DNA of 64,000 nt from contig NZ_MWQY01000013.1 of assembly GCF_002087085.1 (NCBI RefSeq), positions 62,001-126,000 of the forward strand. Direction: 5' to 3'. Shown piece after piece: positions 16,582 to 40,511 of this stretch; the first letter of the stretch is position 1; the number at the start of each line of letters is the position of its first letter. The position numbers were made by a program, and so were the translations under genes. The notes below the pieces were generated by a model. The model searched no databases. It was given only the letters and a program-made list of their open reading frames with translations, and had not been told where the DNA came from.

Positions 16582-18681
16582 TCAGAAGCTGACCCTCGTT
16601 TCGATTGAAACTGCAAAGTCCGCCTCCTTGTTTCCAGCCTCATCCTCGCTCACGAAGTTGGTCACCACTGCGGCGATCTGCAGGTTCGGGGCGAAGGAGT
16701 AGACCAATTCTCCGAAAAGGGCGGTCCGCTCGTCAAAAAGGCTGTTGCTTTCGATTCCGTCCACAAAACCGACGGTGTCCATTCCCAGGGAAGCGCTTAC
16801 CGGGATAAAGGGTATCCGGGGAACCGTCGCCATAAGGTGGAACAGGTCCGCCGTATCGTCGAATCCCTCATCGTCCCAGGCCCAGCGGTAGCCGGCTTCA
16901 AGCATCAGCAGGTTTTCAAGCTCGAATCCCGCCTGGCCATAGATCCCCCGGGTAACCTCCTGCAGTGAGGAGGAGAGGGGTATAAGCTCACCAAGGTCCC
17001 GGGCATACTGTTCCCGCTGTCTCTCGTAGGTGGGACCGTAGAAACCATGGGCAAAAAGTCCCTTGTTGTACTGGTACTCCAGGCGGTAGTTCAGTATGGA
17101 CAGATTACCGAAGATGCCGGAAGCCCAGCCGTAGTTCTGCAGCCGCTCAAGAAGATTGTCCTCGGAATCGTCATAGATAAAATCGGACTGCCATCCCGCG
17201 GAAACTGTTCCAAAGCTTCCCGTGTAATCCTCCCGGTAGTAGGGAAGCATGGTGCCGATGTCGGCAAAACCGACCAGGGAGAAGTTGTCCCGTTCCATAA
17301 GGGGGAACTCCGTATCCAGGGCGGTATGCAGAAAGAGGGGATCCCCCGCCTTGTCGTCCAGATCAGCTGCCGGGGCGATATCTGTCACCGAGGAGATGCC
17401 GAAACCCAGGGGAAGAGTCCGTCCCAGAGGGCGATAGCCGATGCGGCCTCCCATGATCTCCGGTTCTGCCAGATCGTTGAAGACCGATTCGATGGTCCAT
17501 TTATCGGCGTTGAATCCGGTGTTCAGACCAACCCTGCGAATGGCGGGAAAGTCGGTGTCATTGGCAAAACGGTTTATGATGATGCCGTGGCCGAGGGTCA
17601 CATTGTTGACGTTTCCGGCCTTCAGGAAGAAGGGGTCCCGGTTGTCGCCGTATTCAATGTAACGGATTTTCAGTACCAGGTCCTTCAGGGCGTCCCGGGC
17701 GGCATCGGCACTGTTGTCCTGGTCCGTACCGAAGGACCATTCGTAGTTGTCGTCCGGTTTGTACCAGTCTTCGGGATCGAAAAGGTCGGTATTGTAAATG
17801 ATAGGCAGGTACAGACCAAGTTTGAAATCCCCGATGTTGAATGCGGGCTGCAGAATGAATTTCGAGAAGGTGAGCCCGTCGATGGTGACCGTACCGATCT
17901 CCATTCCGAGATGCTCCGAAAGGTAGCGCATGAAGGCGCTCTCTTCGGCGGGTTCACTGATCTCCGGTTCGGGTTCGGGCTCTGCAGCAGGTTCTGAATC
18001 GCTGCCGGTCTCGACGGCGGGGGGCTGATACCCCGGTACTTCCGCCGGCACAAGGGCTTCAAACTGCAGGTCCCGGTAGAGGGCCGCGAAGTTCTCGGTG
18101 CTCAAGGCAAGGGCCTCAAAGGAAGGTGCCAGGGCGTCGGCAAACTGCCCGGCTCCCAGTCTGAGGGATTCTCCGCTTGTGAGGCTGGTATAGTCAATCT
18201 CTCCTTCAAAGACAAAGGCGCTGTCAGAGGCGGAAGGTATAACCTCGAGGCCGAAGTCGGTACCCCGGATACCCGCGACTGCCGAGGGAGTCTGGATGGA
18301 GTAGTTGTTGCGCTTGAAAAGGCCGAATTTCGCAGCGATGGCCCGCAGTTTGCCGCCGAAAAGGGTAAACTCGTTGGCGGACTGTTCATCCTTCTGCAGA
18401 CTCTCTATTACAAACTCGGTATTGCTTGAGAGGCGAATGATGGAACCATTGGGATCAAGACGGATCTCTGCGGCGGTCCGGCCGGTCTTTATCCGGTCAC
18501 CGGGCATAAGATCCATGCCGTAGAAGATTTCCTCTATGCGGTTGCCGTCTATGTCAAAGACCTGGATCTCGTACTCATCTCCGAAATATTCCAGTACCGC
18601 TGTCGGTTCCTCCGTTTCCTGGGGAAACATGACAAGAGGCAAGAGGAGCATTATTGATGCAGCAAGCAGCAGATTCTTCAT
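16582..18681 (-). CDS. exported FecR-domain protein with C-terminal putative beta-barrel
   Basis: Signal peptide, FecR motif GDRIKT...IQTPSAVAGIRGTDF, Pro/Glu linker, amphipathic strands and terminal Phe (RVSF). Confidence 0.7.
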   Translation of the reverse strand: MKNLLLAASIMLLLPLVMFPQETEEPTAVLEYFGDEYEIQVFDIDGNRIEEIFYGMDLMPGDRIKTGRTAAEIRLDPNGSIIRLSSNTEFVIESLQKDEQSANEFTLFGGKLRAIAAKFGLFKRNNYSIQTPSAVAGIRGTDFGLEVIPSASDSAFVFEGEIDYTSLTSGESLRLGAGQFADALAPSFEALALSTENFAALYRDLQFEALVPAEVPGYQPPAVETGSDSEPAAEPEPEPEISEPAEESAFMRYLSEHLGMEIGTVTIDGLTFSKFILQPAFNIGDFKLGLYLPIIYNTDLFDPEDWYKPDDNYEWSFGTDQDNSADAARDALKDLVLKIRYIEYGDNRDPFFLKAGNVNNVTLGHGIIINRFANDTDFPAIRRVGLNTGFNADKWTIESVFNDLAEPEIMGGRIGYRPLGRTLPLGFGISSVTDIAPAADLDDKAGDPLFLHTALDTEFPLMERDNFSLVGFADIGTMLPYYREDYTGSFGTVSAGWQSDFIYDDSEDNLLERLQNYGWASGIFGNLSILNYRLEYQYNKGLFAHGFYGPTYERQREQYARDLGELIPLSSSLQEVTRGIYGQAGFELENLLMLEAGYRWAWDDEGFDDTADLFHLMATVPRIPFIPVSASLGMDTVGFVDGIESNSLFDERTALFGELVYSFAPNLQIAAVVTNFVSEDEAGNKEADFAVSIETRVSF

Positions 18682-18691
18682 ACCGTCCTCC

Positions 18692-20035
18692 TTAGAACGA
18701 AAAGTCCACCGAGGTGGTCAGGGTCGCGGTGGTAATCCAGGGATCCTCTCCGGCTGCAGCCGAAAGCGGGTTGTGACGCAGGGTATATCCCAGGGTTATC
18801 AGGGCATTTCCCGTCTTGTAGTTCAGGTCCGCTCCAAGCACGGTGTTTTCCGGCCTGGAGAAGTCGTCCAGCCCCTTGATGTAACGTTTATTGTAGCTCA
18901 GGTCAAAGTAGATCCCCGGCAGAAGGCCCTCGCCGATGGAGAGGCTGGCATTGACCTGGGGGTACTCGATATCCTGGTCGGGTTCGCCGAAGCCGCCCTC
19001 CACACTGGTGAGAAAAACCACTGTATCCTGCAGGAAGGAAAAACCGAGGCTTCCGTACCATCCGGCGTAGGCTGGAATATCGATATCGCCGTTGTACACT
19101 GCGTATTTCTCTTCCCGGTAAAGATCGTACTGCCCGTCAAAGTAGACGGGAACAAAGTTCTCTCCCAGAAAACGGAGCTGGGCACCGTACAGGATGTACC
19201 GAATGAGCCGGCCGCCGGCCCCGACCATACCCCCGTAGGCCTCGTCCTGGAAAACCAGGTCCCCGAAGGCCGCGAGACTTACTGTCGGTTTGTCCAGGAT
19301 AGGCTGTCGCAGGTCCACCCCGAACATCTGTACCATGTCCGGCTCTCCGGAGATAAAATCGTATTGGGCATCGGGAATCCTGTCTGCTGCAAAGGTTGTC
19401 CCCAGCTGAAGCTCGGGAAGCAGGGGCAGGGAGGTCCCGGCCAGGGGGCGGGCGTAAATCCGGGCGCCGATTACATCCGCCAGGGCAAGGTTCCCGACGA
19501 AGGTTTCAAGCCCCACATAGGGAAAACCGAACAGCCCCCCGTCCACATCCAGGCTCAGCCCTATAATCCTGGTGTCGGGCAGAAACTGGGTATTCGCATA
19601 TCCCCCCATGATAAAGCCGTTCCCCAGAGTCCCGTCCTCGATGGAACCCAGTTTGGCGTAAAAATCGTCCCCCTTCTGTCCGTAGCGGACATAACTGAAT
19701 ATGGGCAGATATTTTTCGAGAACATTTTCATCGTCATCCAGGACCCAGTCTTCCTCCCGGATTTCGCCGCCGCTGTCGGTAAAGCGGAAATGGAGGGGAA
19801 TCCAGAGCCCAAGGCCCAGCTTGCCGTAGGAGAAATCGGGTTTCAGCACCAGACGCTGATAGGCCACAGACTCGCCGTCTTCCTGAAAACTGACCGCTCC
19901 CAGGTCGATCCCGAGGCCGAAATCAAAGGAGGGCTCCGAATCAGGAGATTCCGTTTCCTGGGCTGTCAGGAAAGTAGCGGCTCCAAAAAGTGTTATGATG
20001 GCAATTATACGTTTCAGTCTGCTGGAAATTATCAT
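18692..20035 (-). CDS. putative outer-membrane beta-barrel protein, paralog of the C-terminal part of 16582-18681
   Basis: Signal peptide, shared block YVRYG...LGNGFIMGGYAN..F.P..R.IGL, terminal VDFSF. SD AAGGAGG. Confidence 0.65.
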   Translation of the reverse strand: MIISSRLKRIIAIITLFGAATFLTAQETESPDSEPSFDFGLGIDLGAVSFQEDGESVAYQRLVLKPDFSYGKLGLGLWIPLHFRFTDSGGEIREEDWVLDDDENVLEKYLPIFSYVRYGQKGDDFYAKLGSIEDGTLGNGFIMGGYANTQFLPDTRIIGLSLDVDGGLFGFPYVGLETFVGNLALADVIGARIYARPLAGTSLPLLPELQLGTTFAADRIPDAQYDFISGEPDMVQMFGVDLRQPILDKPTVSLAAFGDLVFQDEAYGGMVGAGGRLIRYILYGAQLRFLGENFVPVYFDGQYDLYREEKYAVYNGDIDIPAYAGWYGSLGFSFLQDTVVFLTSVEGGFGEPDQDIEYPQVNASLSIGEGLLPGIYFDLSYNKRYIKGLDDFSRPENTVLGADLNYKTGNALITLGYTLRHNPLSAAAGEDPWITTATLTTSVDFSF

Positions 20036-20161: not shown

Positions 20162-23100
20162 TCAGAAGCTGAATTCTCCCACAACACCCGTCTCCAGGGC
20201 ATAATAGGTCAGGTTGTCGCTGTTGCTTCCGCTGATTGGGGTATGCCTGAACCCGAAGGCCAGGTAGACCTCGATGCTGCCCTGTCCTCCGAAGGTAATG
20301 CCCGTGGCGTGTTTGATGCTCATGGTCCTTGACCAGGTTTCCCCTTCCACGGGGCTGAGTTCCCAGTCCAGCGTTTCCCGATGCCGCAGGTGTTTGTCCG
20401 CCGGGGGCATGTTGAGGCCTCCCAGGGGAAGGGAAAAATTGAAAGCCATAGCCTGAAACCAGGTTGCCTTGAGGCTTCCGCTCCAGGCCGGGCGATCATC
20501 CTCATTGGAAAAACTGAGATTATTGCTGAGGGCATACTCGGTCAGCCCCGGCCCGAAGAGCATTATCTCGTTCCGGTAGCGCCATGAAAAGTCAAGGTCG
20601 TCGTCATAGTGGGTGGAAAGCTGGAAGCTGCTGGAAAACTGGTCCGATTCGTACCAGCGGAAAAAAGGGTAGGCCCCGAGGCTGCCGAAAAGATTGATAG
20701 CCGTCATGCGGGCTGTAGTATCCGTCCCAAGAGAGCTTGTCACCGAATCATAACTGCGCTCATAGCTGCGGCTGACCTCGAAAGCCAGATAGGAGGGGAC
20801 CAGCAGATCGATGAGGCGGGAAGAAAACCGCCGTTCCAGGGATATCCCCGTTACGGGTGAGTAGTCGGCGGCATCAAAGCCTGCGGTACCGTCCCGGAAG
20901 GCTCCGAGGGCGGAATCCCGGGTGATCTCGACTACCGGAGGAGCGGAGAAAAAATAGTCCTGGTCTCCCGCCGTATCTGCCCATGACGAAGCATCTGTGG
21001 AAAACCCCTTCTCTTTTTGGGTATCTCCGGGACTGAATTCACCGCTGAAATCCCGGCGGTAATACAGGGAATAATCGAGGCTGTTGAAATTCTCGGGGAA
21101 TAGGGCTCCGCTGAAATTCAGTTCCAGCCCCATGCTGTCCAGCTCCTTGCGGGGATCTGTTCCATAACGCGAGTTCTCTGCTGAAGGAAGAATTCTTACC
21201 GAATAGTCGTCTCCCCATCGGGTTTCCATGGGAAGAAAAAGGCCGGAGGAGCGGTCCGTGGGCAAAAGCTCTTCCTGGTAGATCAGCAGCCTGGTCCCCT
21301 GGATCCATCCGTCGCCGTAGAAGGAGTGGAAATCCACCCCCGGGTCGCCAAGGGTGTTGGTAAGGTTCAGGAGGGGGCTGAAGGAAAAACCTTCGAAGGG
21401 GTTGATCTCCGCCTCTGTTTTCCATGTCTGGCTGAGGGTATCGTCATTGTAGGCGGCCCGGGAAGTAAACCCGGCGCTTGCCCCGGTAAGGTTCAGCTTC
21501 AGGCTGTTCTGTTTGGTAAAACTGAAGTCCTCCTGTACCGGATCATGGGTGTAGCTGTCTTCCATCTGAAGGGGACCGTCTTCCGGAATGGTGATGGTAT
21601 GACTTCCTGAGACCTGGGGTCCGGAGTCATCCTCCCTGATGTTGAGACTGAGGCGGGCCCGGGAATAGAGGCTGGAGAAAGCGGCCTCGTTATAGACCCG
21701 GTAGACCCGGCCGTCGGCGGGGGTAAATCCGGAAGCGAAGCCCGAAGAGGCAACCCGGGAGTTTCCGGACCAGCTGAAATTACCAAAAAGGGGAAATCCC
21801 TTTACCCTCAGAATATCTCCATCCTTTGAATAGCGGGCGGAGCTCAGGACGCCGAGATCACTGGATAGGACGGGATCGCTTATATGGAGCTCGTCGAGGA
21901 AAACAACACCGCCGCCAGCGTTCGCGATACTGAAGGTCGCCTGTCTGGCGATGATGTTTGTACTGCCCGAGACAACAGCCGAGGAGATGCTTCCTCCCTC
22001 GACGGAGACTTTGCCGCTTTTCATGTTGACACTGACTTCGCTCCAGGAAGAGGACTGTTCAATATCCGCCAGTTCCACCCGGTACTCTCCCTCATCCCCC
22101 TTCAGGGTGAGGCTCAGATCGGCTGAAATCGGGCTGTGAAGACGGTAGTAAAAGCGCAGGGTTTCGTAGGAGTCCAGGGGGACCTCCGGGACCGGGCCGA
22201 CGGCAGCTCCGTCCGTTCCAGTCCATTCCAGGCGCAGTACCTTCTGGTCCTCGTCGCCGTCATTGAAACGGTCTTCCACCAGGTCGTAGGCGGCGTACAG
22301 GGGGACAGCGGGAGCCTCAGCGGGGTCGAGGTCGTATTCCGAAACCTCCCCGGTTTCGGATGCTGAGTTGCCTGGGACAAAGGAACTTCCGTGGAAGCGA
22401 AGCTCCCCGACAAGCAGTCTGCCGCTGGTAACGGCGACTGCATCAAGAAGAATCTGTACGGCCCGGGTTGCAGCCAGCTGTGCCCGGTCGGTCCCGGAGA
22501 GGGGTATGTAGACCTCCCGCCAGGGCCCGGCCGGCAGGAGACTGACGGAGTGTTCGAGAACCTGGGTATCCGTCTCCCGGTTGAGAAGTCCGTTACCGTC
22601 GGCGTCCTCGCTCTCCTCCGTCCCGTTGCCGAACTCCCCCCGAGGACCTGCGCCTCCACCGCCAACCGAGAGGGTGTAACCCGTGGGAGCATGGGTGTAG
22701 GCAAAGCCGGAATCATAGGGACCGTTCTCTTCATCCAGGTTCCTGTCGCCGTCAAGGTCCTCCGAGACCGATCCGGCCCGGAGAGTCATGTTGACAGCGG
22801 TCTCATCTCCGATGAGCCTGTACTTGAAGGAGATGCCCGCCGCCCCCGAAAGATCCAGACTGCCCCCGGGGGCGCTTATCTGGGCTCCCACCCATTCGGT
22901 GTTGTCCAGATCGTAATCAATTACGGCGACGATGCCTTCGATGTCGTCGTCTTCCGCCTTGGCAACGGAAGGACCGATGGGATTCCCGTCGGCAAAGGCA
23001 TAGACCTGTTCTCCCGGGGGAGACCAGTCGTACTCCCGTAAAGTGCTGCCGCCGGTGGAGAGGTACTGGTAGTAGTCGGTATAGGGCATCTCTCCCAGGT

Positions 23101-24769
23101 CGGCCCGGTCGAAGGCTGTACTCGGTGCCGCGGGAAAGAGGGTGTGGCCGCTGATACCGAAATCCACGGTTCCCCGGTTCATGCCTCCCAGGCGCAGGTA
23201 GCCCCGGGTGTCGTGGGTCCCCACGGAAAGGCCGCCGTTTACGCTGATACCCCAGTCCTCTGCCTGGTAGTCCGCCCCTGCGGCAGCAAGGATGCTGCCC
23301 GGGGCCTCGGCATACTCTTCACTGTAACCCTGGGAGTCCATGTTCCAGCGGACACCGATGTCTCCCCGGAGGCTCAGCTCGGGAATGTTCTTCCAGGGCT
23401 GAAATGTATTGGTGGAGACGAAAAGCAGGTCAGCTCCGGAAGCCCCGTCGTCTGGAAGTTCATAGCTGACCTCCACGGTATCGCTTTCGAACACGGGAAA
23501 GGGAAAGTCAAGAGTGCCGTCATCCAGGCGGGTAAAACGAGTCTCGTTTCGCCCGTTGATGGTGACGCGCACCGATCCCTGTATCGCATTCCTGGGAACA
23601 CTGATGGAGGCGGTACCGATAACCCGTTCGTAGAGCAGTATGTAGGGCACCAGGGGATCGTAGCCGGCGGCTCCCGGGTAAATTTGAGGCAGCAGGCCTT
23701 CCAGAGGTTTTTTTTCGCTTGCTCCCTGCCGGAGGGTGATGATACCGGCCCCGTACTCCCCGGTAAAGACCGCCACAGCCTCGAGCTCCCCGGAGGGGCG
23801 CAGTTCCACCTTCACAGTTTTACCGGGACGCGCATTGGGGGCGGGGTAGACCGCAAGGAACTCCAGATCCGAGGGGCTTCCGTCCTCGTAGAGGAGCAGG
23901 AAGGGAATCCCCCCGACAGTCAGATCTGCAGTATAGGGTGCGGATCCTCCCTGTTCGTAGTATATCAGAACCCGCCCTGCCGGGGCCTCAGAGAGGCTCA
24001 CGAAGCCCTGCTCCGCAGAGACCGCCGCCTCAAAGTCGGAGGCCCGCGTGTAGCGTCTTCCGTCACCGTCCACGAGCTCACCGTTCCTGTCTTCCAGATA
24101 GACAGCGGCGTTTTCAATGTCCTCGTGGTTCAGCAGAAAGTAGCGGCCCCGGATAAAATCCGCCGGATTCAGATACACCTCTTCTGTCTCCGAGGTCCCT
24201 GCGTAGGTCCTGGTTACCCTGGAGGTCCGCTGGTAGCGAAGGAGGAGTTCGTGGCGGCTGCGTTCGGTCTCCAGGGTGGCAGAGGCCCCCAGGGCGCCTT
24301 CGGGGTGTTCACCCGGATCGATAAGAGGCGTCGAATCGATGGCGGTACCGGTATTTCCCAGGCGGACCCGCCGGACAAGCTCTCCCTCCCGTCCTTCGTA
24401 GCCCAGCAGGTAGGTGTTGAAGGAGGAGTCTCCGGTTATGGTGCTTTCAAAGAAATAACGCTCCATGAGCCAGAGGGAGAGGGTCAGGTCCGGCAGCTGG
24501 TTGAACATGAAGCCGGAACTGAAGCCCGGTACGGAGGGGGTCTCGGGAGATGGAGTTCCCCAGATGCCTCCGAGGCTGGTGGAGATGTTCCAGCTTCCCG
24601 CCAGAAAAAGATCGACGTCGGCATCTCCCAGACTGGTGGAAAAGAGCGCCTCCGGGGCTTCATCCTCCGGCAGCGGGACGGAGTCTTCGCCGACGGCAAC
24701 CCGGGCGGCGGCAAAGGTGAGGAGAAGTACCAGCATCAGTGTCGTCTTGCTAAGATCTATTCCCTGCAT
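20162..24769 (-). CDS. large exported protein, SprA-like outer-membrane protein
   Basis: Signal peptide, colinear SprA-like motifs (see findings), beta-rich C-terminus and terminal GEFSF. Confidence 0.6.
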   Translation of the reverse strand: MQGIDLSKTTLMLVLLLTFAAARVAVGEDSVPLPEDEAPEALFSTSLGDADVDLFLAGSWNISTSLGGIWGTPSPETPSVPGFSSGFMFNQLPDLTLSLWLMERYFFESTITGDSSFNTYLLGYEGREGELVRRVRLGNTGTAIDSTPLIDPGEHPEGALGASATLETERSRHELLLRYQRTSRVTRTYAGTSETEEVYLNPADFIRGRYFLLNHEDIENAAVYLEDRNGELVDGDGRRYTRASDFEAAVSAEQGFVSLSEAPAGRVLIYYEQGGSAPYTADLTVGGIPFLLLYEDGSPSDLEFLAVYPAPNARPGKTVKVELRPSGELEAVAVFTGEYGAGIITLRQGASEKKPLEGLLPQIYPGAAGYDPLVPYILLYERVIGTASISVPRNAIQGSVRVTINGRNETRFTRLDDGTLDFPFPVFESDTVEVSYELPDDGASGADLLFVSTNTFQPWKNIPELSLRGDIGVRWNMDSQGYSEEYAEAPGSILAAAGADYQAEDWGISVNGGLSVGTHDTRGYLRLGGMNRGTVDFGISGHTLFPAAPSTAFDRADLGEMPYTDYYQYLSTGGSTLREYDWSPPGEQVYAFADGNPIGPSVAKAEDDDIEGIVAVIDYDLDNTEWVGAQISAPGGSLDLSGAAGISFKYRLIGDETAVNMTLRAGSVSEDLDGDRNLDEENGPYDSGFAYTHAPTGYTLSVGGGGAGPRGEFGNGTEESEDADGNGLLNRETDTQVLEHSVSLLPAGPWREVYIPLSGTDRAQLAATRAVQILLDAVAVTSGRLLVGELRFHGSSFVPGNSASETGEVSEYDLDPAEAPAVPLYAAYDLVEDRFNDGDEDQKVLRLEWTGTDGAAVGPVPEVPLDSYETLRFYYRLHSPISADLSLTLKGDEGEYRVELADIEQSSSWSEVSVNMKSGKVSVEGGSISSAVVSGSTNIIARQATFSIANAGGGVVFLDELHISDPVLSSDLGVLSSARYSKDGDILRVKGFPLFGNFSWSGNSRVASSGFASGFTPADGRVYRVYNEAAFSSLYSRARLSLNIREDDSGPQVSGSHTITIPEDGPLQMEDSYTHDPVQEDFSFTKQNSLKLNLTGASAGFTSRAAYNDDTLSQTWKTEAEINPFEGFSFSPLLNLTNTLGDPGVDFHSFYGDGWIQGTRLLIYQEELLPTDRSSGLFLPMETRWGDDYSVRILPSAENSRYGTDPRKELDSMGLELNFSGALFPENFNSLDYSLYYRRDFSGEFSPGDTQKEKGFSTDASSWADTAGDQDYFFSAPPVVEITRDSALGAFRDGTAGFDAADYSPVTGISLERRFSSRLIDLLVPSYLAFEVSRSYERSYDSVTSSLGTDTTARMTAINLFGSLGAYPFFRWYESDQFSSSFQLSTHYDDDLDFSWRYRNEIMLFGPGLTEYALSNNLSFSNEDDRPAWSGSLKATWFQAMAFNFSLPLGGLNMPPADKHLRHRETLDWELSPVEGETWSRTMSIKHATGITFGGQGSIEVYLAFGFRHTPISGSNSDNLTYYALETGVVGEFSF

Positions 24770-24829
24770 TACTCTATAGATGCAAACAATACCACACACC
24801 GACCGTTTTGTAGAGGATTTACGAATAGA

Positions 24830-25117
24830 ATGGTAGTTTCCATGATTCAGGTGGTCTTTGAACTGCCCGAGGCGACGTCTCTGAAGGAGAAACGCCAGAC
24901 CCTGCGGTCCCTGAAGGACCGCTTAATCAGGAAGTACAAGGTTTCGGTGGCGGAGATCGATCTGCAGGATTCCCTCTCCTTCTGTCATATCGGCGCGGCC
25001 TATGTCACCAATTCCCGGGAGATCGGAGAGCGGGTGATGCAGCGGGTCGCCGATTTTGTGGAAGACACCATACCCGGGCGGGTCCATAACATCGCCGTTC
25101 ACAGCGAACGTTTTTAA
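24830..25117 (+). CDS. DUF503 (YlxP-like) protein
   Basis: MVVSM...SLKEKR...LKDRL..KYKVSVAEID. This is the real 3' part of the track's 657-aa ORF. Confidence 0.88.
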   Translation: MVVSMIQVVFELPEATSLKEKRQTLRSLKDRLIRKYKVSVAEIDLQDSLSFCHIGAAYVTNSREIGERVMQRVADFVEDTIPGRVHNIAVHSERF

Positions 25118-25557
25118 ATTTCCTGGTCCTCGTTTTCGTTGTGGATGTCCACCGCCTCCTTGACCGCGCCGATGCAGAGGTTGAAGTCCTTCAGGGTCTC
25201 CTTGAGGGAGTAGAAATTGAGTCCCGCAAAGTAGATTTTCGAGAAGACTGAAAAGGAGATCTCCTCTTCCTTGCTGATATTGATATAGCATCCGAATTCG
25301 TAGCAGATTTTCAGCATCTCCACCAGGCGGCGCTGAAGGAATTCCGAGGTTTCCGGAGGAAAAGCGAAGGTGTAGGCTATCTCGAGGAACTTGTTGTCCA
25401 TGTCGATGTAGAACTCTCCGGCGGCTCCGTCACCTCCCTCGAATCCGGCGATGTAGGAGGCCTCGTCCCCGGAGTTATCGAAGACTTCGTAGCCCAGTTC
25501 CTTGAATAGTACGTTTACCCGTTGAATCCGTTCGCGCATAAGTTTAGAGTATTTCAT
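25114..25557 (-). CDS. hypothetical protein, possibly YbjN/chaperone-like fold
   Basis: 147-aa ORF with an alpha/beta pattern reminiscent of YbjN. Upstream TTGAAG-17-TACAGT. Confidence 0.6.
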   Translation of the reverse strand: MKYSKLMRERIQRVNVLFKELGYEVFDNSGDEASYIAGFEGGDGAAGEFYIDMDNKFLEIAYTFAFPPETSEFLQRRLVEMLKICYEFGCYINISKEEEISFSVFSKIYFAGLNFYSLKETLKDFNLCIGAVKEAVDIHNENEDQEI

Positions 25558-25626: not shown

Positions 25627-26949
25627 TCATTCTCCGAAGAGGCCGGTCATTATTTTCGGTATATACGGGGCTGCAGTGCGGGCGATGCCGGGGGGCAGAA
25701 AGAGCCGGACCTTGCGCAGAGACCTGGTGAATCCTTCAACCACGGAGGTTGAAAAAACCGATCCGCTGGAAGCGAAGGGCAGGAAGCTGTCGTTCCGGTA
25801 GATTAACAGATCCACCTCAAAGGATATGGGCTCAGGGATATCGAGAATCACCTCCCAGGCTTCAATCCCCGTATCGTATTCTTCCCGCAGAATCGAAGCT
25901 ATGCGGTTTTCCAGGTCCATCCGGGCATTCAGGTCCGTAGCCTGTTTGTGCAGCCGGGGATCGAAGGGGCATTCGAAGGCGGTTTTCAGGAGCCGGCGTT
26001 CAAAGACCATTCTGGCCAGCTGGTAGTAGCTTCTCTCCCGTATGGCCAGGGTCCGATAGAAACCTGCGTCGTCCAGGCCGTAGAGCGCCTCCTGGTCGAG
26101 GTCGTTCTCCGTCAGTCCCAGAAGCACCGCTTTCTTTATCATCGCCGTGGCAATGCGTACGGTGCGGTGCCAGTAGACGCTGCGGTACATCTGATACTTG
26201 GCAAAGAGCAGGCTCTCCACGGAACCGAGTCCCCGTTCATCCAGGGCCAGGGCGGAGGCTGTCGGAATGATCTTGTCGATAAAGAAGTCCGTGTCCTGTA
26301 TGCCGTAGGGAACACCGCAGAAGAAGGCGTCCCGGTTCAGGTAATCCAGCTTGTCCGGGTCCAGCACTCCGGAGAGAATCCTGCGGAAAAAGAGGATCTC
26401 TCCGTTGTTGTGATGATCCATCCCCTCATCCACAATGGCGGCTACCACATAGGGTTCCACCCCCACATCCTCCCGCAGCACCCGCTGGAAGGGGGGAGTC
26501 ATGACCAGCCGTCCGGTGAGGACTTCATGATCCAGCAGGGGAAGGTCCTTGAAGGAATGGGTATAGGGAAAGTGTCCCAGATCGTGGAGCAGGGAGGCGC
26601 ATAAAAATGCCTTGACCCCTTCGAGACTGACAGGAGGGCTTCGCCGGTCGACGCTGATGTGACGGATTATCCGCTTGGCAAGGTGAAAAACCCCGAGGCT
26701 GTGGTTCAGACGGGTATGGGTGGCCCCTGGATACACCAGGTAGGCCGGGCCCAGCTGACGGATGCCCGCCAGTTTCTGGAACTCCCCCAGGGAGATCAGT
26801 TTTTTCAGTGCCGGGGTCAGATAGATGTTCTGCCACAGGGGATCCCGGATGGCCTCGGTGTAATCGCTGCTCAGATGTTCAAGGATTTTTTGACGAGTCT
26901 GCTGTTCTATTCCCACGTTTATTCCTTTAGAGCTGCCCTTTTTTCTCAA
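25627..26949 (-). CDS. HD-domain phosphohydrolase (dNTP triphosphohydrolase-like)
   Basis: IRQLG..YLVYPGATHTRLNHSLG, LLHDLGH, DPDKLDYL.RD and MYRSVYWH. Confidence 0.9.
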   Translation of the reverse strand: MRKKGSSKGINVGIEQQTRQKILEHLSSDYTEAIRDPLWQNIYLTPALKKLISLGEFQKLAGIRQLGPAYLVYPGATHTRLNHSLGVFHLAKRIIRHISVDRRSPPVSLEGVKAFLCASLLHDLGHFPYTHSFKDLPLLDHEVLTGRLVMTPPFQRVLREDVGVEPYVVAAIVDEGMDHHNNGEILFFRRILSGVLDPDKLDYLNRDAFFCGVPYGIQDTDFFIDKIIPTASALALDERGLGSVESLLFAKYQMYRSVYWHRTVRIATAMIKKAVLLGLTENDLDQEALYGLDDAGFYRTLAIRERSYYQLARMVFERRLLKTAFECPFDPRLHKQATDLNARMDLENRIASILREEYDTGIEAWEVILDIPEPISFEVDLLIYRNDSFLPFASSGSVFSTSVVEGFTRSLRKVRLFLPPGIARTAAPYIPKIMTGLFGE

Positions 26950-27705: not shown

Positions 27706-28959
27706 ATGATGGGAACCCCCGTAGGCCGTGTGGAGCGAGAGTTTGTACTGAATAATGTGGCGGAAAAGAAGATATCCCTCAGGGTTCACGGATACAAGAA
27801 AACCCGCCAGGCCATTGTGCTCAGAATCGAAGAGGATGTACTGGTTCTGTACAATGATACGGAGGGATGGAGTGATTTCTCCGCCAAAGAGGAGATCCGC
27901 GTATTTTTTTCCTACTTCGGACACGTAATGACTTTTCCCAGCCGCGTAAAGAGTGCCGACGACTATCTGAGTATAGAAATCCCCGGAGAAATGATAAAGA
28001 ACCTGCAGCGAAAATACGAGCGCATTGCCCTGCCGCCGGGAACAATGGTCAGCTTTGCGGTGGAGAATATCACCTACGAACTTACCTTTCCCAAGACGGA
28101 AGAGTACAACCCGGCGGAACAGCCCGCTTACGGGGATGCTTTTCCCCAGGAATCACTGGATAAACTGATGGCGGGGGCTGCTAAAAAGATCAGCGAGTTC
28201 AAGGCGAATTACCGGATTCAGATGTTCCGGGACCGGGGGCCGAAGGGCTGGGAAGAGGAGATAATTACCCGCACCGGAAAGTCGCTGTTTGTCTCCCCCA
28301 TCAAGGCGGGGGTACCGAAAACAGATCCCGATATGTCCGGGAGGATCCTCACCAAGGCCCAGGCTCTGGCTCCGGAATACAATATCAATCTCTCGGAGCT
28401 CCTGGGCAGCGAAGCCGAACTGGATGAAAGGTTTTCCCAGCTGTCGGATAAGGACATCGTTGCAGTAATCTACTGCCCCCTGATCTATCACGATTATGTG
28501 ATCGGCTATATTCATGTCTGGTCGGAGCATGTCACCCTGGGAATAGAGGTTTTTGAATATCTCTACCAGTTTTCAAAGGTGCTCGTATATGCCCTGAAAA
28601 ATCACGCCTACTTCGATAATATTGAAAGGCAGAAAGGGGAGTATGCAGCCGAGATCCTCGATATCTCCGCCTCTGGACTCCTGTTTACTCATACGTCCCG
28701 GGAGCTTCATGAACGGCTTGTCCTCTATACCGACCTTGATCTGTTTTTACGTATGGGACCGAGGAAGATGGTTATCGGTTCCCGCATTATGAGAAAATAT
28801 CAGGATAACAAGCAGACTTATTACGGATGTCAGTTTCTGGACCTGAAGCCGGAGGATTTTCGCTTTCTTTTTGATTCAATTTACGGGCGGGAGCTGACCC
28901 CGGAAGACGAGGAGCTGTGGGAAGGCGGCGCAGAACCGCCGAAACTTACCTTCACCTAG
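27706..28959 (+). CDS. PilZ-domain c-di-GMP receptor with internal GAF-like insert
   Basis: QRKYER (RxxxR) and DISASG (DxSxxG) motifs, C-terminal YGCQF. SD AGGAG. Confidence 0.8.
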   Translation: MMGTPVGRVEREFVLNNVAEKKISLRVHGYKKTRQAIVLRIEEDVLVLYNDTEGWSDFSAKEEIRVFFSYFGHVMTFPSRVKSADDYLSIEIPGEMIKNLQRKYERIALPPGTMVSFAVENITYELTFPKTEEYNPAEQPAYGDAFPQESLDKLMAGAAKKISEFKANYRIQMFRDRGPKGWEEEIITRTGKSLFVSPIKAGVPKTDPDMSGRILTKAQALAPEYNINLSELLGSEAELDERFSQLSDKDIVAVIYCPLIYHDYVIGYIHVWSEHVTLGIEVFEYLYQFSKVLVYALKNHAYFDNIERQKGEYAAEILDISASGLLFTHTSRELHERLVLYTDLDLFLRMGPRKMVIGSRIMRKYQDNKQTYYGCQFLDLKPEDFRFLFDSIYGRELTPEDEELWEGGAEPPKLTFT

Positions 28960-34302: not shown

Positions 34303-37300
34303 TGAAGCGGGAAACTCCTCTGCCATCACTCCATTGCCGTTCCCATTACAGCCTGCTGGCGGGACCTCTGTCGCCGGAGGATATCTGCCGCAGGGCCGCG
34401 GAGGAGGGTGCGGAGAGCGTCGGCATGGTGGACAGGGCAAACCTGTACGGGCTTCCCGCCTTGTATCGGGCCGCCGGGCGCTACAATCTCAAGGCTGTGG
34501 CGGGGGTGGAATTCGCCTCTCCCGGTTCATCCCGGGACTCTCTCCCTCTCTTTACCTTTTATCCCCTGAACCGGGAAGGTTTTGCCCGCCTCAACCGCCT
34601 GATAAGCCGGTTTGCCGACTCTTCTTCAGACCCCGTGGAGCTCCTTTTGAAGGAGGGCTGGGAGGGAGGCAGGGTGGCGGTATTCCGGCCGGAACTTTTT
34701 CCACGGCTGCTGGAAAGGAGCCGTCGCGGTCTTGTCGCTGCCCTGGTCTGGGGCCTGCCCTTCCGCGCGATGCTGACAGAGGCCCGGAGACTGCGTATTC
34801 CTCCCCTGGCGCTGAACGCGGCGCTCTACGCAACGGAGGAAGAACGGCGGCTCTACCGTATTCTTCGGGCCATCGACGAGAACCGCAGCATTCAGAGAAA
34901 CCGGGGAGCAGAACAGGAGGGGCTTCCCCCCGCATGGCGCCGGCGCTGTTCCCCCGCACAGATGGCGGCCTTTTTTTCCTCCCTGCCGGATGCCCTGTAT
35001 CAGGCCCGTCTGCTGGCCGGGGACGCCGCATCGTCCCTCTTTCCGGACAGCTACGTCTTTCCCTCCTTTCAGGGCATGCGGCCCGAGGAGGAGTATCAGC
35101 GCCTCCGGGGCCTGTGCATGCGGGGTGTCCGCCGACGCTACGGATCTCTGACCCCTGCCGTCCGCCGACGCCTGGACTACGAACTGGATATCATCAGGCG
35201 CAAGGGCTTTGCCGGATACTTCCTGGTGGTGCAGGACATCGTCGCCCGTTGTCCCCGGACCTGCGGACGGGGAAGTTCCGCCGCCAGCATTGTTTCGTAC
35301 CTTCTTGAGATAACCCATGTTGACCCTCTGGCCTGTGACCTCTTTTTCGAACGCTTTCTGAATATGGGACGCATGGATCCTCCGGACATAGATGTGGATT
35401 TTCCCTGGGACGAAAGGGAAAAGACCCTGGACTACGTCTTCGCTGCGTATGCCGGGCAGGCGGGAATGGTGGCGGACCATGTTACCTTCGGGTCCCGGTC
35501 GGCGCTGCGGGAGTCCGCCAGGGCCTTCGGATTGCCTGAACCGGATATAGGGCCCCTCGCCGAAGCTTTCCGCATGGGGGAATCCGGACTGCCTCCCTAC
35601 CTCGAGGCGACCGCCAAAGGGCTTCTCGGTATCCCCCGGCATCTTGGAACCCACCCCGGGGGGGTGGTAATCAGTCCCGGACCCATAACCGATTATACCC
35701 ATGTCGGGACTTCTCCCCTGGGCCGGCCGTTGATCGCCTGGGAAAAGGAGGGAACCGAGGATGCGGGGCTGGTCAAGATCGATCTTTTGGGAAACAGGTC
35801 CCTGGGGGTGCTCCGGGATGTACTGACCCTGACCGCTCCCCTGCGGGCCGGGGCCGGGGAGCCTCCCCTGGAGTGGAGCAGCTTCAATCCTCTGGAGGAT
35901 ACCCGTACCAGGGAGATGATCGAAGCGGGGGATACCCTGGGGGTCTTCTACGTGGAGTCCCCAGCCACGCGGCAGCTTCTGAAAAAGATGCGGTGCGGCG
36001 ATTATCCCCATCTCGTTATCGCCAGTTCCATTATCCGCCCCGCCGCCAACCGCTACATCAATGCTTTTCTCCGGCGACTGCGGGGAGCGGTTCATGATTC
36101 CCTGCATCCGGCGGTGGATGAGGTTCTGGCGGAGACCCGGGGCATCATGGTTTACCAGGAGGACGTTGCCCGGGTGGCCATTGCGGTCTGCGGTTACAGC
36201 CCTGCTGAGGCGGACAGCCTGCGCAAGGTACTGTCAAAGAAGGACCGCTCCCTTCGGCTGCCGGCCTTTCGCGAGGAGTTTATCCGCCGGGGCCGCAGCC
36301 GGGGGGTCGCCCCGAAGGTGCTGGAGGAACTCTGGGAAGGGATCCTCTCCTTCGAAGGATATTCCTTCTGCAAAGCCCACAGCGCTTCCTACGCCCTGGT
36401 CTCCTACCGCCTGGCCTGGCTCAAGGCGCGGTATCCCCTGGAGTTCTTCTGCGCCGTCATCAACAACGGCGGGGGGTTCTATTCCCGGCAGGTCTATCTC
36501 AACGCCCTCTCCAGGGCGGGTTTTCCCCTCCTTCCGCCGGATGTGAACCGGAGCGCAGGGCCCTATACGGTAGAGCGCCGGGAGTACCCGGGGGGTGCTC
36601 TGAGAACCGGACTTCTTCAGCTCAAGGGGGTGGAGGATTCCTTTATCAGGAAACTTCTGGATGAACGCCACCGCCGGGGACCCTTTGCCGATTTTCAGGA
36701 TTTTCTTATGCGCCTCAATCCTCCGCTGCCGGATATCCGCGGACTGATCCGTTCCGGTTCCCTGGACGGAATCGCTGCCGGAGTACACCGGCCGGGACTT
36801 TTCTGGTACTATTTTCACGTATCAAAGCATCCCGAGCTCTTTATTGCACCTGCAGCCCCGGCATCCCTGGGGGATTACCCCGGAGAGGTAAAACTGCAGG
36901 ATGAGCTGGAGACCCTGGGACTGCTGGTAAGCCGGCATCCGGCGGAACTTCTTCGGATTCCGGAGGGGATGTACGATTGTGATGTTATTCTGACGGGTTC
37001 GGGCAGCATTCCGGAGTTCCCGGGAAAACGGATCGCCATACCTTCGGTTCTCGTTACCGGCAAGGAGGTGCGGACCAGGACAAAAAAAGAGATGTGTTTC
37101 CTGAGTTTCGAGGACCTGGAGGGAATTTATGAGACCGTGCTTTTTCCCGAGGTCTACCGGCGTCTGTATCCCCGTATCTGCAGATTCTGCGCCTTTCTGG
37201 TTACCGGTACGGTGGAACAGGAGTTCGGGGTTTTTCAGCTCAGGGTGGAAGAGCTGGAGCCTCTGGACGCTGCTCCCCTTGATTCACCGAAACAGGTGTG

Positions 37301-39084: not shown

Positions 39085-40335
39085 TCAGCTGTTCTCGTCG
39101 TCCAGCAGGGTATTGATACCCGTGAGTTCTTCCTGGAGTCGAAGGCTGGTAAGGACGGTATCAAGGTTCTCCGACGCCGGGGTAAAATCCGGATCAAGTT
39201 CCAGAACAGCCTGCCAGTGGCGGACCGCAAGCCGAAGGTCGCCCCGGGCATAGGCTTCAAGCCCGGCTATGTACTGCTCTTCCACCATCTGCTGACGGGC
39301 ATACCGTCCCCGGTCGCCCAGATCCATGGACGCTACCACACTAATCCGGTCCAGGGGAGCGGACACCTGGGTATCGAGACCCAGGGTATAGTTGATATTG
39401 AAGGCCATATCGCTGGTCAGAAGTTCAGTTCCCAGGGAGAACCTCGGGTTGCCTCCGCGATAATGAAATCCGCTCTGCAGGGAGAAGAAATTGGTTACCG
39501 CCAGGTCCATGCCCGTGGCAATGTACCAGTTTTCCGCAGGAACATCAGGCTGCAGACTGAAGGGGTAATTGAAATCCGTCGTCAGAGTCAGGGGTCTGAA
39601 GGGTGAATAGGCTATACCCAGGGACGCTTCTGTGGGAAGCGCTTCTCCGTCCGTACTGATTCCCAGATTACGTGCCACAAGACCGACTGCAAAGTTACTC
39701 TCCCGGGCAACATAGGGTTTCATAAAATTAAAGCGGGTCAGAAGTCCGATATCGGCCAGTAATCCGAAGGCTGACTGGCCCGGTTCAATTACCTCAGGGA
39801 TATGACGATAGGCTGTTTTTAAATTTGCCCCCAGGGCGAGACCTTCATAATCGTAGCTGGAAAAGAAGTTATAGGAGATATTCGCCGTAGCCAGGGTCTC
39901 GGAGTAGTAGATGCTGGCCTGGGTGTCTCCCCAGTCATTGTATTCGGTAAAGGGTACGTACAGGAACTTTCCACCGAAACCGTAGCCCAGATTCTCGTTG
40001 CGCATGGTAAAGACGGCGCTGTCGATGGATGTATCGGCGATCCACGCATTATGGGCCAGGGCTATCTGGGTTCTGTCCAGCAGAGCACTGGCCGCCGGAT
40101 TGGCTTCGAGGTAGGAAAAATCATTTGCCAGTGCGGTAAAGGCAGTTCCCATGGCTTCGTAGCGTCCGCCTATGGGAATCTGGAGGATGGGAAAGACCGT
40201 CAGGCCGGTGTTGGGGTCTGCAAAGGATTCGGAAAAGTCAAAATAACTGTCGAAAAAACCTTCTCCCGAAGCGGAAAAAGGTACAGTCAGAAGGAGGAGA
40301 AATATTGTAGCCCTCAGCATGATTGTTCTCTGCAT
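39085..40335 (-). CDS. UPF0164 family protein (PorV/FadL-like outer-membrane barrel with C-terminal TPR-like helices)
   Basis: Signal peptide, IPIGGRYEAMGTAFTALAND....NPA motif, amphipathic strands and C-terminal GLEAY..G.L..A...W...L..DP. Confidence 0.85.
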   Translation of the reverse strand: MQRTIMLRATIFLLLLTVPFSASGEGFFDSYFDFSESFADPNTGLTVFPILQIPIGGRYEAMGTAFTALANDFSYLEANPAASALLDRTQIALAHNAWIADTSIDSAVFTMRNENLGYGFGGKFLYVPFTEYNDWGDTQASIYYSETLATANISYNFFSSYDYEGLALGANLKTAYRHIPEVIEPGQSAFGLLADIGLLTRFNFMKPYVARESNFAVGLVARNLGISTDGEALPTEASLGIAYSPFRPLTLTTDFNYPFSLQPDVPAENWYIATGMDLAVTNFFSLQSGFHYRGGNPRFSLGTELLTSDMAFNINYTLGLDTQVSAPLDRISVVASMDLGDRGRYARQQMVEEQYIAGLEAYARGDLRLAVRHWQAVLELDPDFTPASENLDTVLTSLRLQEELTGINTLLDDENS

Positions 40336-40511
40336 AGCAGCTGCCTTTTGCGAATATACCACCAATTCCGGGAGAATACTATATTTTCGGCACTTTGCAG
40401 TCCCGGGTCAAGTCAATCTCCCCTCAAGAACCCAATCGGCCTTCATATTGGGAATCTGGGTATACTGCCCCTCCAAATATGCCGATAATGTGGTACATTC
40501 AGTACGAAGAA

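What the first reader, a model, noticed from the sequence alone, without database searches (positions are those of the whole stretch)
20162..24769. SprA-like (type IX secretion translocon-like) giant outer-membrane protein in a spirochaete
Seen: a 1535-aa protein with a signal peptide, a terminal Phe and these motifs in order: LGYEGREGELVRRVRLGN, LNPADFIRGRYFLL, EWVGAQIS...LDLS....ISF, GSVSEDLDGD, EDADGNGLL, WREVYIPL. Recalled knowledge: Bacteroidota SprA/Sov has a colinear series, approximately LxYxGxEDxIIxxIEAGN, xDYxxNRHFFL, WGGIxR...DF....IEF, GxISED, EDxNxNxxL, WxQFRIP. It forms a very large barrel translocon of roughly 2400 aa. Inference: this is a shortened SprA homologue. T9SS is described mainly in the FCB group, so a spirochaetal version could be an uncharacterised outer-membrane translocon.
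Basis: partly seen in the sequence, partly recalled or inferred. Interest (0 to 1): 0.8.

Follow-up and report, generated by a model that had tools for sequence, protein, structure and literature searches.

The report
Shortened SprA-like translocon in a spirochaete

Summary
Window 20162-24769 (-) is an intact 1535-aa ORF with a signal peptide, a terminal Phe and all six quoted motifs.

The family occurs in 143 of 301 Spirochaetota genomes sampled. It co-occurs with PorV/PorQ-family barrels (127 both, 16 and 16 single, 142 neither) and with T9SS-type C-terminal domains (102/41/17/141).

The window's genome has one PorV-like gene (39085-40365), one giant protein (>2575 aa) with such a domain, and no GldL/M/N or PorU above cut-off. 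A fold of the PorV-like protein with that domain scored 0.83 against 0.00 for controls, possibly from memory of a solved complex.

Best reading: a reduced type-IX-like export route without the known motor. Homology is near certain; function is inferred. I found no paper describing it.

The parts
20162..24769 (-). SprA-like gene, 1535 aa (stop codon 20162-20164). A GTG 30 nt upstream at 24799 is an alternative start.
   Evidence: homology; fold
24689..24769 (-). Signal-peptide-like N-terminus (about residues 1-27). The cleavage site was not computed.
   Evidence: read from the translation
24125..24547 (-). N-terminal conserved region (residues 75-215) with the GYEG...GN and RGRYFLL motifs. This is the part that weakly matches TIGR04189 directly and where the hhalign match to SprA starts.
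21845..23212 (-). Central region (about residues 520-975) with beta-sandwich, CBM-like inserts and the acidic GxxxEDLDGD / EDxxGNG motifs.
20165..21952 (-). C-terminal run of long beta-strands (about residues 940-1535) ending in Phe. It aligns to the C-terminal barrel of SprA as far as SprA residue 2401.
   Evidence: DSSP strings; VIA ranges
18692..20035 (-). orf447: signal peptide, porin-like predicted barrel, ends in Phe, 126 bp downstream of the SprA-like gene. Conserved neighbour.
16582..18681 (-). 699-aa protein: N-terminal FecR domain, Pro/Glu-rich linker, and a C-terminal barrel paralogous to orf447. Ends in Phe; 10 bp after orf447 and 15 bp before mutL.
39085..40365 (-). PorV/PorQ-family-like outer-membrane protein (Pfam UPF0164). 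The start is probably the ATG at 40335. It has a helical C-terminal tail.
   Evidence: co-occurrence; complex

Best explanation
The gene encodes a divergent, shortened member of the SprA/Sov superfamily, the giant single-chain outer-membrane barrel that is the protein-conducting channel of type IX secretion. This part is shown by profile and fold. The rest is inferred. After Sec export and insertion into the outer membrane, the barrel acts as a translocon for proteins that end in a T9SS-type Ig-like C-terminal domain. In this genome that is apparently one giant protein of more than 2575 aa. A PorV/PorQ-family barrel, also encoded in the window at 39085-40365, binds that domain and collects the cargo, as PorV does in Bacteroidota. 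The GldKLMN/PorKLMN motor and the PorU sortase were not found, so the route is either energised by something unknown or is passive. The two paralogous barrels encoded just downstream (orf447 and the FecR-barrel protein) are candidate accessory subunits of unknown role.
For: Homology:
- hhalign of A2 (69 family members) against P0174 gave 98.0 %, E 1.7e-13, 912 columns. P0174 scores 438 bits on TIGR04189, cut-off 200.
- hhalign of A2 against 20 Gemmatimonadota SprA sequences gave 99.4 %, E 1.9e-21, 928 columns.
- TIGR04189 hits the orthologous 1734-2344-aa ORFs in 26 of 41 panel genomes, down to E 5.4e-23. Seven full ORFs score 73.5-128.5 bits.

Fold:
- The C-terminal model (pLDDT 87.2) has SprA as its four top hits, E 7.8e-27 to 7.7e-21; the next is 3.2e-7. 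It aligns to SprA residues 746-2401.

Context:
- Co-occurrence with the PorV/PorQ family in 301 genomes: 127 both, 16 SprA-like only, 16 PorV-family only, 142 neither.
- Co-occurrence with TIGR04183 C-terminal domains: 102 / 41 / 17 / 141.
- The giant protein's relatives occur in 28 of 61 class genomes, always together with the SprA-like gene: 28 / 11 / 0 / 22.
- In other lineages, genes for proteins with this C-terminal domain are followed directly by PorV/PorQ-family genes. I saw 18 such pairs; two PorV-like ORFs score 185 and 173 bits against a cut-off of 90.
- Predicted complex of the window's PorV-like protein with the last 106 residues of the giant protein: score 0.83, best of 3 controls 0.00. 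The mark was reached by 51 of 78 solved complexes and 2 of 108 mismatched pairs. Partner pLDDT was at least 82 and contact agreement at least 84 %.
Against: - Direct family searches fail for this protein: Pfam gives nothing at E<=1, TIGR04189 gives 9.6 bits, and PDB sequence and profile searches find no SprA. 0 of 29 family members hit any Pfam family at E<=0.01.
- The hhalign match covers residues 75-1054 only.
- Motor and sortase were not found above cut-off in the window's genome: GldM none, GldL 19 bits against 68.3, GldN none, GldK 85 bits against 350, PorU only OmpA-like tails. GldM and GldL were also 0 of 41 above cut-off in the panel. No T9SS-positive control genome was available.
- The only C-terminal domain of this type in the genome scores 23.4 bits against a cut-off of 23. 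It matches FlgD_ig better, at 36.1 bits, so it may be a generic Ig-like domain.
- The window's PorV-like protein is below the family cut-off (78.8 against 90).
- The co-occurrence counts are phylogenetically structured, and the negative genomes tend to be small.
- The complex pass may reflect memory of the solved PorV-CTD complex (8GL6).
- The orf447 family co-occurs only partly with the SprA-like family: 79 / 64 / 51 / 107.
Confidence: 0.6

Rival explanations
1. It is an SprA-superfamily barrel recruited to another outer-membrane task, such as surface display of lipoproteins or envelope biogenesis. It would work with the adjacent orf447 and FecR-barrel proteins rather than with a PorV-like shuttle and cargo carrying a T9SS-type C-terminal domain.
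For: - The order SprA-like, orf447-family barrel, FecR-barrel is kept in 16 of the 25 related loci, namely those with enough downstream DNA.
- The order recurs in distant families: the L047 locus ends in MutL as in the window, and L046, L049 and L050 have a distant orf447-family barrel directly downstream (A5 hmmsearch E 2e-8 and 3e-8).
- In 2 of 7 other loci the SprA-like gene sits in a tight same-strand cluster with lolCE and lolD.
- No motor was found.
Against: - Phyletic coupling is much tighter with the PorV/PorQ family (127/16/16/142) than with the orf447 family (79/64/51/107).
- The giant protein is never seen without the SprA-like gene.
- Lol adjacency was seen in only 2 of 7 loci.
- The small genomes of family f5 had no match (0 of 6).
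Confidence: 0.25
2. It is part of a complete, canonical T9SS whose motor and attachment components are simply too divergent, or unassembled, to be seen.
For: - The genome is 97 % complete in 79 contigs.
- The GldM and GldN searches had no positive control ('nothing rang anywhere').
- A weak GldL-like hit of 19 bits exists.
Against: - The same tool found divergent SprA, PorV-family and C-terminal-domain matches across the phylum.
- GldM and GldL were 0 of 41 above cut-off even in genomes with dozens of cargo/PorV-like cassettes.
Confidence: 0.1
3. It is a giant barrel that resembles SprA only by convergence, or a decaying relic without function.
For: Direct sequence searches give no significant SprA hit.
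Against: - Profile-profile E 1.9e-21 over 928 colinear columns.
- Intermediate spirochaetal forms hit TIGR04189 directly.
- The ORF is intact, with conserved motifs, and the family is present in 87 of 126 genera sampled.
- Both models have pLDDT 87.
Confidence: 0.03

Closest known systems
SprA/Sov, the T9SS outer-membrane translocon of Bacteroidota (PDB 6H3I, 6H3J, 8GL6, 8GL8; TIGR04189; Pfam SprA_N PF14349)
   Same: - Signal peptide and C-terminal Phe.
- Colinear conserved motifs.
- Colinear fold from near the N-terminus (residue 50 aligns to SprA 133) to the last residue (1535 aligns to SprA 2401).
- Profile-profile homology.
   Different: - About 870 residues shorter than the 2403-aa Flavobacterium protein (that length is recalled; the aligned ranges come). 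The shortening is spread over all three thirds.
- Far below the curated family cut-offs.
- Encoded in a genome where GldKLMN and PorU were not found.
- Followed by two paralogous barrels that I do not know from described T9SS loci (recalled).
Gemmatimonadota SprA (about 2000 aa; P0174 and relatives)
   Same: This is the closest sequence bridge. It was the first non-family hit of the profile search, and it is a true TIGR04189 member.
   Different: 16-19 % identity over the aligned columns. Those proteins carry Pfam SprA_N; this one does not.
PorV/PorQ family (NF033709) and the treponemal UPF0164 (PF03687) outer-membrane proteins
   Same: The window ORF 39085-40365 scores 187.6 bits on UPF0164 and 78.8 bits on PorV_fam over profile positions 2-308. 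It is predicted to bind a T9SS-type C-terminal domain.
   Different: It is below the PorV_fam cut-off of 90 and is not a PorV or PorQ equivalog. It has an added helical C-terminal tail.
Leptospira ImpL63 (NF047543) and FecR-domain lipoproteins such as LipL45
   Same: orf447 and the barrel half of the 699-aa protein weakly match ImpL63 (E 1.3e-6 and 8.7e-5). The FecR domain matches LipL45 and Lsa33.
   Different: Scores are far below the cut-offs. The function of these leptospiral proteins is itself unclear (recalled).

Membership tests
SprA/Sov family (TIGR04189 / PF14349) | Scores above the curated family cut-off | tested here: not met
   TIGR04189 9.6 bits, E 0.11, against a cut-off of 200. 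Pfam gave no hit at E<=1. 0 of 29 relatives hit Pfam.
SprA/Sov family (TIGR04189 / PF14349) | Remote homology to true SprA by profile-profile comparison | tested here: met
   99.4 %, E 1.9e-21, 928 columns. 98.0 % against a single true SprA.
SprA/Sov family (TIGR04189 / PF14349) | Fold matches solved SprA over most of its length | tested here: met
SprA/Sov family (TIGR04189 / PF14349) | Closed 36-strand barrel with extracellular cap and lateral opening | tested here: inconclusive
   Only two overlapping 1200-residue pieces could be folded. I counted about 36 strands of 10 or more residues in the DSSP lists, some of them in the sandwich inserts. No coordinates were available to count barrel strands.
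SprA/Sov family (TIGR04189 / PF14349) | Sec signal peptide and C-terminal aromatic beta-signal | tested here: met
   Read from the translation. The terminal F is kept in the family consensus.
Type IX secretion system | GldL/PorL and GldM/PorM motor | tested here: inconclusive
   Not found above cut-off in the window's genome, which is 97 % complete. 0 of 41 panel genomes above cut-off. The searches had no positive control.
Type IX secretion system | GldK/PorK and GldN/PorN ring | tested here: inconclusive
   GldK: 85 bits against 350, C-terminal half of the profile only; it also rings in Bacillus and Caulobacter. GldN: none, with no positive control.
Type IX secretion system | PorV shuttle | tested here: inconclusive
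   PorV equivalog: none. PorV/PorQ subfamily: 78.8 bits against 90 for window 39085-40365. Predicted binding to the C-terminal domain scored 0.83 against 0.00 for controls.
Type IX secretion system | Cargo with a type A C-terminal sorting domain (TIGR04183) | tested here: met
   One protein, 23.4 bits against a cut-off of 23, at the very C-terminus of an ORF of more than 2575 aa. The same domain also scores 36.1 bits on FlgD_ig. phmmer found no second copy.
Type IX secretion system | PorU sortase | tested here: inconclusive
   Only 21.9 and 14.6 bits, on OmpA-like C-terminal tails.

The most novel reading that the evidence does not exclude
Spirochaetota carry a phylum-wide export route related to type IX secretion but lacking its known motor. 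It consists of a shortened SprA-like translocon, a PorV/PorQ-like shuttle and cargo ending in a T9SS-type C-terminal domain. In the window's class it is reduced to one translocon, one shuttle and one giant surface protein. In other classes it is expanded to dozens of cargo-plus-shuttle gene cassettes. It also has new accessory barrels (the orf447 and FecR-barrel family). This would mean that the SprA translocon can work without GldLM, and that type IX-like secretion is older or more mobile than its FCB-group distribution suggests.
Probability: 0.45. Interest if true: 0.9.

Novelty: new variant of a known kind. Interest (0 to 1): 0.78.

Why it matters
Type IX secretion is treated as a hallmark of Bacteroidota and their FCB relatives. 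Its translocon is thought to depend on the GldLM/PorLM motor. How spirochaetes move large proteins across their outer membrane is poorly understood.

A conserved SprA homologue in about half of the sampled Spirochaetota would give that question a concrete candidate machine. It tracks PorV-like barrels and proteins with the T9SS-type C-terminal domain, yet has no recognisable motor. That would also give the T9SS field a natural minimal system for testing what the translocon can do by itself.

The family includes host-associated treponemes: one homologue is named 'Treponema sp.' by its source. A large surface-exposed barrel is therefore also of interest for outer-membrane proteomics.

Tried and rejected
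- Direct Pfam, NCBIfam and PDB sequence searches with the protein gave nothing usable. PDB profile searches with A1 and A2 found no SprA, only a weak CBM11 hit.
I scanned 29 of the 69 against Pfam instead and got 0 hits.
- The search for related loci with A2 failed because the alignment has no conserved stretch. I repeated it with A1.
- The notes of earlier sessions were closed.
- The PDB profile search with the orf447 family (A5) gave only a chance-level hit, so its fold class rests on Atlas look-alikes: porin-like, plus a FecR-fused cluster named for Fidelibacterota.
- phmmer of the giant protein's C-terminal domain against all ORFs of the genome found no second cargo.
- The two PorU 'hits' are OmpA-like tails.
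- RNA evidence: short contigs from 4 metatranscriptomic libraries of 3 studies lie at 95 % identity or more on parts of the SprA-like, orf447 and FecR-barrel genes. Depth is low and DNA carry-over is not excluded. I treat it as a weak hint, and parts without cover mean nothing.
- Promoter and terminator scans gave consensus matches only.
- Literature: six full-text searches and passages read in four papers turned up no description of a spirochaetal SprA homologue. The nearest was a preprint calling a Brachyspira protein 'PorV/PorQ family' (10.1101/2025.01.03.631275, passages only). Subscription papers and supplements were not seen.
Full report
**Observation.** The minus strand of the window carries one long ORF, 20162..24799 from a GTG or 20162..24769 from the first ATG. 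The ATG form is 1535 aa. It starts with a hydrophobic signal-peptide-like segment and ends in ...GEFSF. They coincide with invariant or nearly invariant columns of a 10-member and a 69-member family alignment. An exhaustive phmmer search with residues 337-1535 found 449 cluster representatives at E<=1e-3 and 168 at E<=1e-30, almost all 1500-1700 aa.

**Is it an SprA homologue? Direct searches.** Direct searches say little:
- Pfam gave no hit at E<=1.
- NCBIfam TIGR04189 (SprA/Sov) gave only 9.6 bits, E 0.11, against a cut-off of 200, although at the equivalent N-terminal position (residues 42-215 against profile 87-258).
- PDB sequence and profile searches found no SprA.
- 0 of 29 family members, out of the 69 I had, hit any Pfam family at E<=0.01.

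**Is it an SprA homologue? Deeper comparisons.** These are clear.
- A profile search with the 69-member alignment returned 21 family members and, as the only outsider, a 2025-aa protein with Pfam SprA_N (E 0.089 for a database of 5.8 billion sequences). That protein scores 438 bits on TIGR04189.
- hhalign of the family profile against it gave 98.0 % probability, E 1.7e-13, 912 columns.
- Against an alignment of 20 of its relatives gathered, several of which their sources name SprA of Gemmatimonadetes, hhalign gave 99.4 %, E 1.9e-21 and 928 columns. Family positions 75-1054 align to SprA positions 194-1379.
- There is also a chain of intermediates. In a panel of 41 Spirochaetota genomes, TIGR04189 itself hits the orthologous ORFs (1734-2344 aa) in 26, down to E 5.4e-23. 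Seven such full ORFs score 73.5-128.5 bits. None reaches the equivalog cut-off of 200.
- The language-model Atlas gave a lead in the same direction: 25 of the 30 nearest clusters belong to a set in which a minority of members (12 % in the row shown) carry SprA_N.

**Fold.** The protein exceeds the 1200-residue limit, so I folded residues 30-1229 and residues 336-1535, each with 68 homologues as alignment. Both models are confident: pLDDT 87.6 with pTM 0.77, and pLDDT 87.2 with pTM 0.60.
- Foldseek against the PDB puts the four SprA entries (8GL6, 8GL8, 6H3I, 6H3J) on top for both. For the N-terminal piece, E is 3.7e-40 to 1.3e-26 with TM 0.45-0.55 by query, and the next hit is 3e-9. For the C-terminal piece, E is 7.8e-27 to 7.7e-21 and the next hit is 3.2e-7.
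- Taken together the protein is colinear with SprA from about residue 50 to its last residue, and it is shorter in every third.
- The middle (about residues 520-975) holds CBM-like beta-sandwiches. The last 600 residues are an almost unbroken run of long strands.
- Barrel closure, strand number and a lateral opening could not be tested because no full-length model or coordinates were available.

**Distribution.** The 25 related loci from species genomes are Spirochaetaceae or Spirochaetales MAGs, Marispirochaeta and Alkalispirochaeta. One contig is filed under Myxococcota but has spirochaete-like synteny. In a sample of 301 Spirochaetota genomes the family profile matches 143, in 87 of 126 genera, with ORFs of 1137-2113 aa. 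Four families had almost none: 0 of 6, 0 of 45, 1 of 38 and 0 of 7. The window's genome has a single copy.

**T9SS parts in the window's genome** (4.2 Mb, 79 contigs, 97 % complete).
- Not found above cut-off: SprA equivalog, GldM, GldL (19 bits against 68.3), PorV equivalog, GldK (85 bits against 350, a partial match that also rings in unrelated control genomes), GldN, and PorU (only OmpA-like tails). The GldM and GldN searches rang in no control genome, so they lack a positive control.
- Found, first: one T9SS type A C-terminal domain (TIGR04183, 23.4 bits against 23) at the very end of an ORF of more than 2575 aa that runs off its contig. Pfam calls the same domain FlgD_ig at 36.1 bits. No second copy turned up.
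- Found, second: inside the window itself, a 426-aa outer-membrane protein at 39085-40365 (-). It scores 187.6 bits on Pfam UPF0164 and 78.8 bits (cut-off 90) on the PorV/PorQ family over profile positions 2-308.

**Phylum-level context.**
- TIGR04183 domains occur in 119 of 301 genomes, 109 of them above cut-off. Against the SprA-like family the counts are 102 both, 41 SprA-like only, 17 domain only and 141 neither. At the level of the first 30 families listed, they are 16, 3, 4 and 7.
- PorV/PorQ-family proteins occur in 143 of 301 genomes, 74 above cut-off. They are coupled more tightly still: 127 both, 16 and 16 single, 142 neither.
- In the domain-rich lineages there are dozens of PorV-like genes of about 320 aa per genome (up to 34 hits). 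By comparing coordinates across, I saw 18 cases in which a PorV-like gene lies directly downstream of the domain end of a cargo gene on the same strand. Two such PorV-like ORFs score 185 and 173 bits on NF033709 (cut-off 90), and one neighbour carries TIGR04183 at 27.5 bits.
- GldM and GldL are 0 of 41 above cut-off in a panel that includes 23 domain-rich genomes.
- In the window's own class the giant protein has relatives in 28 of 61 genomes, conserved to the last residue, with ORFs of 2260-4569 aa where complete. The SprA-like family is in 39 of the same 61. The overlap is 28 both, 11 SprA-like only, 0 giant only and 22 neither.
- All these counts are phylogenetically structured and the negative genomes tend to be small. 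They show association, not dependence.

**A direct test of one inferred step.** I folded the window's PorV-like protein (residues 30-426) with the last 106 residues of the giant protein. The score was 0.83 (three runs: 0.83, 0.84, 0.83) against 0.00 for the best of 3 controls. That mark was reached by 51 of 78 solved complexes and 2 of 108 mismatched pairs. Partner pLDDT was at least 82 and contact agreement at least 84 %. A PorV-CTD complex has been solved (8GL6), so the pass may be memory of that likeness. It shows that the pair looks like PorV with its cargo domain, not that it binds.

**Neighbours.** Downstream on the same strand lie three genes:
- orf447 (126 bp gap; signal peptide, ends in Phe; no Pfam family; porin-like by Atlas).
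- A 699-aa protein with a FecR domain, a Pro/Glu-rich linker and a barrel half paralogous to orf447 (E 1e-20).
- mutL.

The gaps between the last three are 10 and 15 bp. This order is kept in 16 of the 25 related loci, those with enough downstream DNA. It recurs in a distant family as SprA-like, a small barrel, FecR-barrel, then MutL in L047. In three further distant loci a 364-404-aa barrel follows the SprA-like gene directly; two of the three score E 2e-8 and 3e-8 against the orf447-family profile, and the third is their close relative by phmmer. At genome level the two families overlap only partly (79/64/51/107), and in several genomes the barrel pair lies elsewhere. In 2 of 7 other loci the SprA-like gene is packed with lolCE and lolD. 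These neighbours are candidate accessory parts, and they are the basis of the main rival reading.

**Expression.** Short contigs from four metatranscriptomic libraries of three studies match parts of all three genes at 95 % identity or more. Depth is low and DNA carry-over cannot be excluded.

**Verdict.** The protein is a divergent, shortened member of the SprA superfamily; I put homology above 0.95. It fails the curated family thresholds, so I do not file it as an SprA equivalog. The genome does not show a canonical T9SS. The most likely function (about 0.6) is an outer-membrane translocon for proteins ending in a T9SS-type C-terminal domain, working with a PorV-like shuttle and without the known motor.

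Six full-text searches and the passages I read found no description of this. Subscription papers and supplements were not seen. I rate it a new variant of a known kind.

Noticed in passing
window 16582-20035 (-): Two paralogous predicted outer-membrane barrels, both ending in Phe, one fused to an N-terminal FecR domain. Both weakly match Leptospira ImpL63 (NF047543). An Atlas structural neighbour is a FecR-fused cluster named for Fidelibacterota.
   Followed up: partly
G004, G006, G020, G034, G046, G058, G069, G078, G079 (e.g. L036, L037): Some Spirochaetota lineages carry dozens of cassettes in which a gene for a protein with a T9SS-type C-terminal domain is followed by a PorV/PorQ-family gene. 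GldL and GldM were not found above cut-off in them.
   Followed up: partly
L048:2408-11128 (-) and L051:6815-15496 (+): In two distant Spirochaetota genomes the SprA-like gene is packed on the same strand with lolCE and lolD (lipoprotein-release ABC transporter).
   Followed up: no
G015, G042, G065, G085, G205, G215, G284: One genus of 2.8-Mb genomes has a short 1137-1141-aa form that matches only the N-terminal (about 5-529) and C-terminal (about 1211-1604) parts of the family profile. It seems to lack the central inserts.
   Followed up: no
L014 (contig filed as a Myxococcota MAG): The contig has the spirochaete-like order of HD-domain gene, orf147, then SprA-like N-terminus (41-59 % identity). 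The SprA-like match stops at residue 238 although the contig goes on. This may be a mis-binned contig or a disrupted gene.
   Followed up: no
G000:C56:208531-216258 (L031:5532-13259, -): A giant ORF of more than 2575 aa runs off the contig end. The only recognised domain is the C-terminal Ig-like one. Same-genus relatives are 3958 and 4569 aa.
   Followed up: partly
window 25114-25557 (-) and 25627-26949 (-): A conserved 147-aa ORF and an HD-domain protein lie upstream of the SprA-like gene in 21 of 25 related loci. In most other loci about 2.5-3 kb of extra DNA separates them from the SprA-like gene. The overlapping 122-aa ORF 24923-25291 is poorly conserved and probably spurious.
   Followed up: no
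window 43640-48532 (+), 37129-38229 (+), 27706-28959 (+): A 1630-aa protein with BNR-like, HAMP and SpoIIE (PP2C) parts; an ankyrin-repeat protein; and a DUF1577-PilZ protein.
   Followed up: no
window 23144-25117 (+): A 657-aa ORF lies antisense to the SprA-like gene. It is most likely a shadow frame of this 55-61 % G+C stretch.
   Followed up: no
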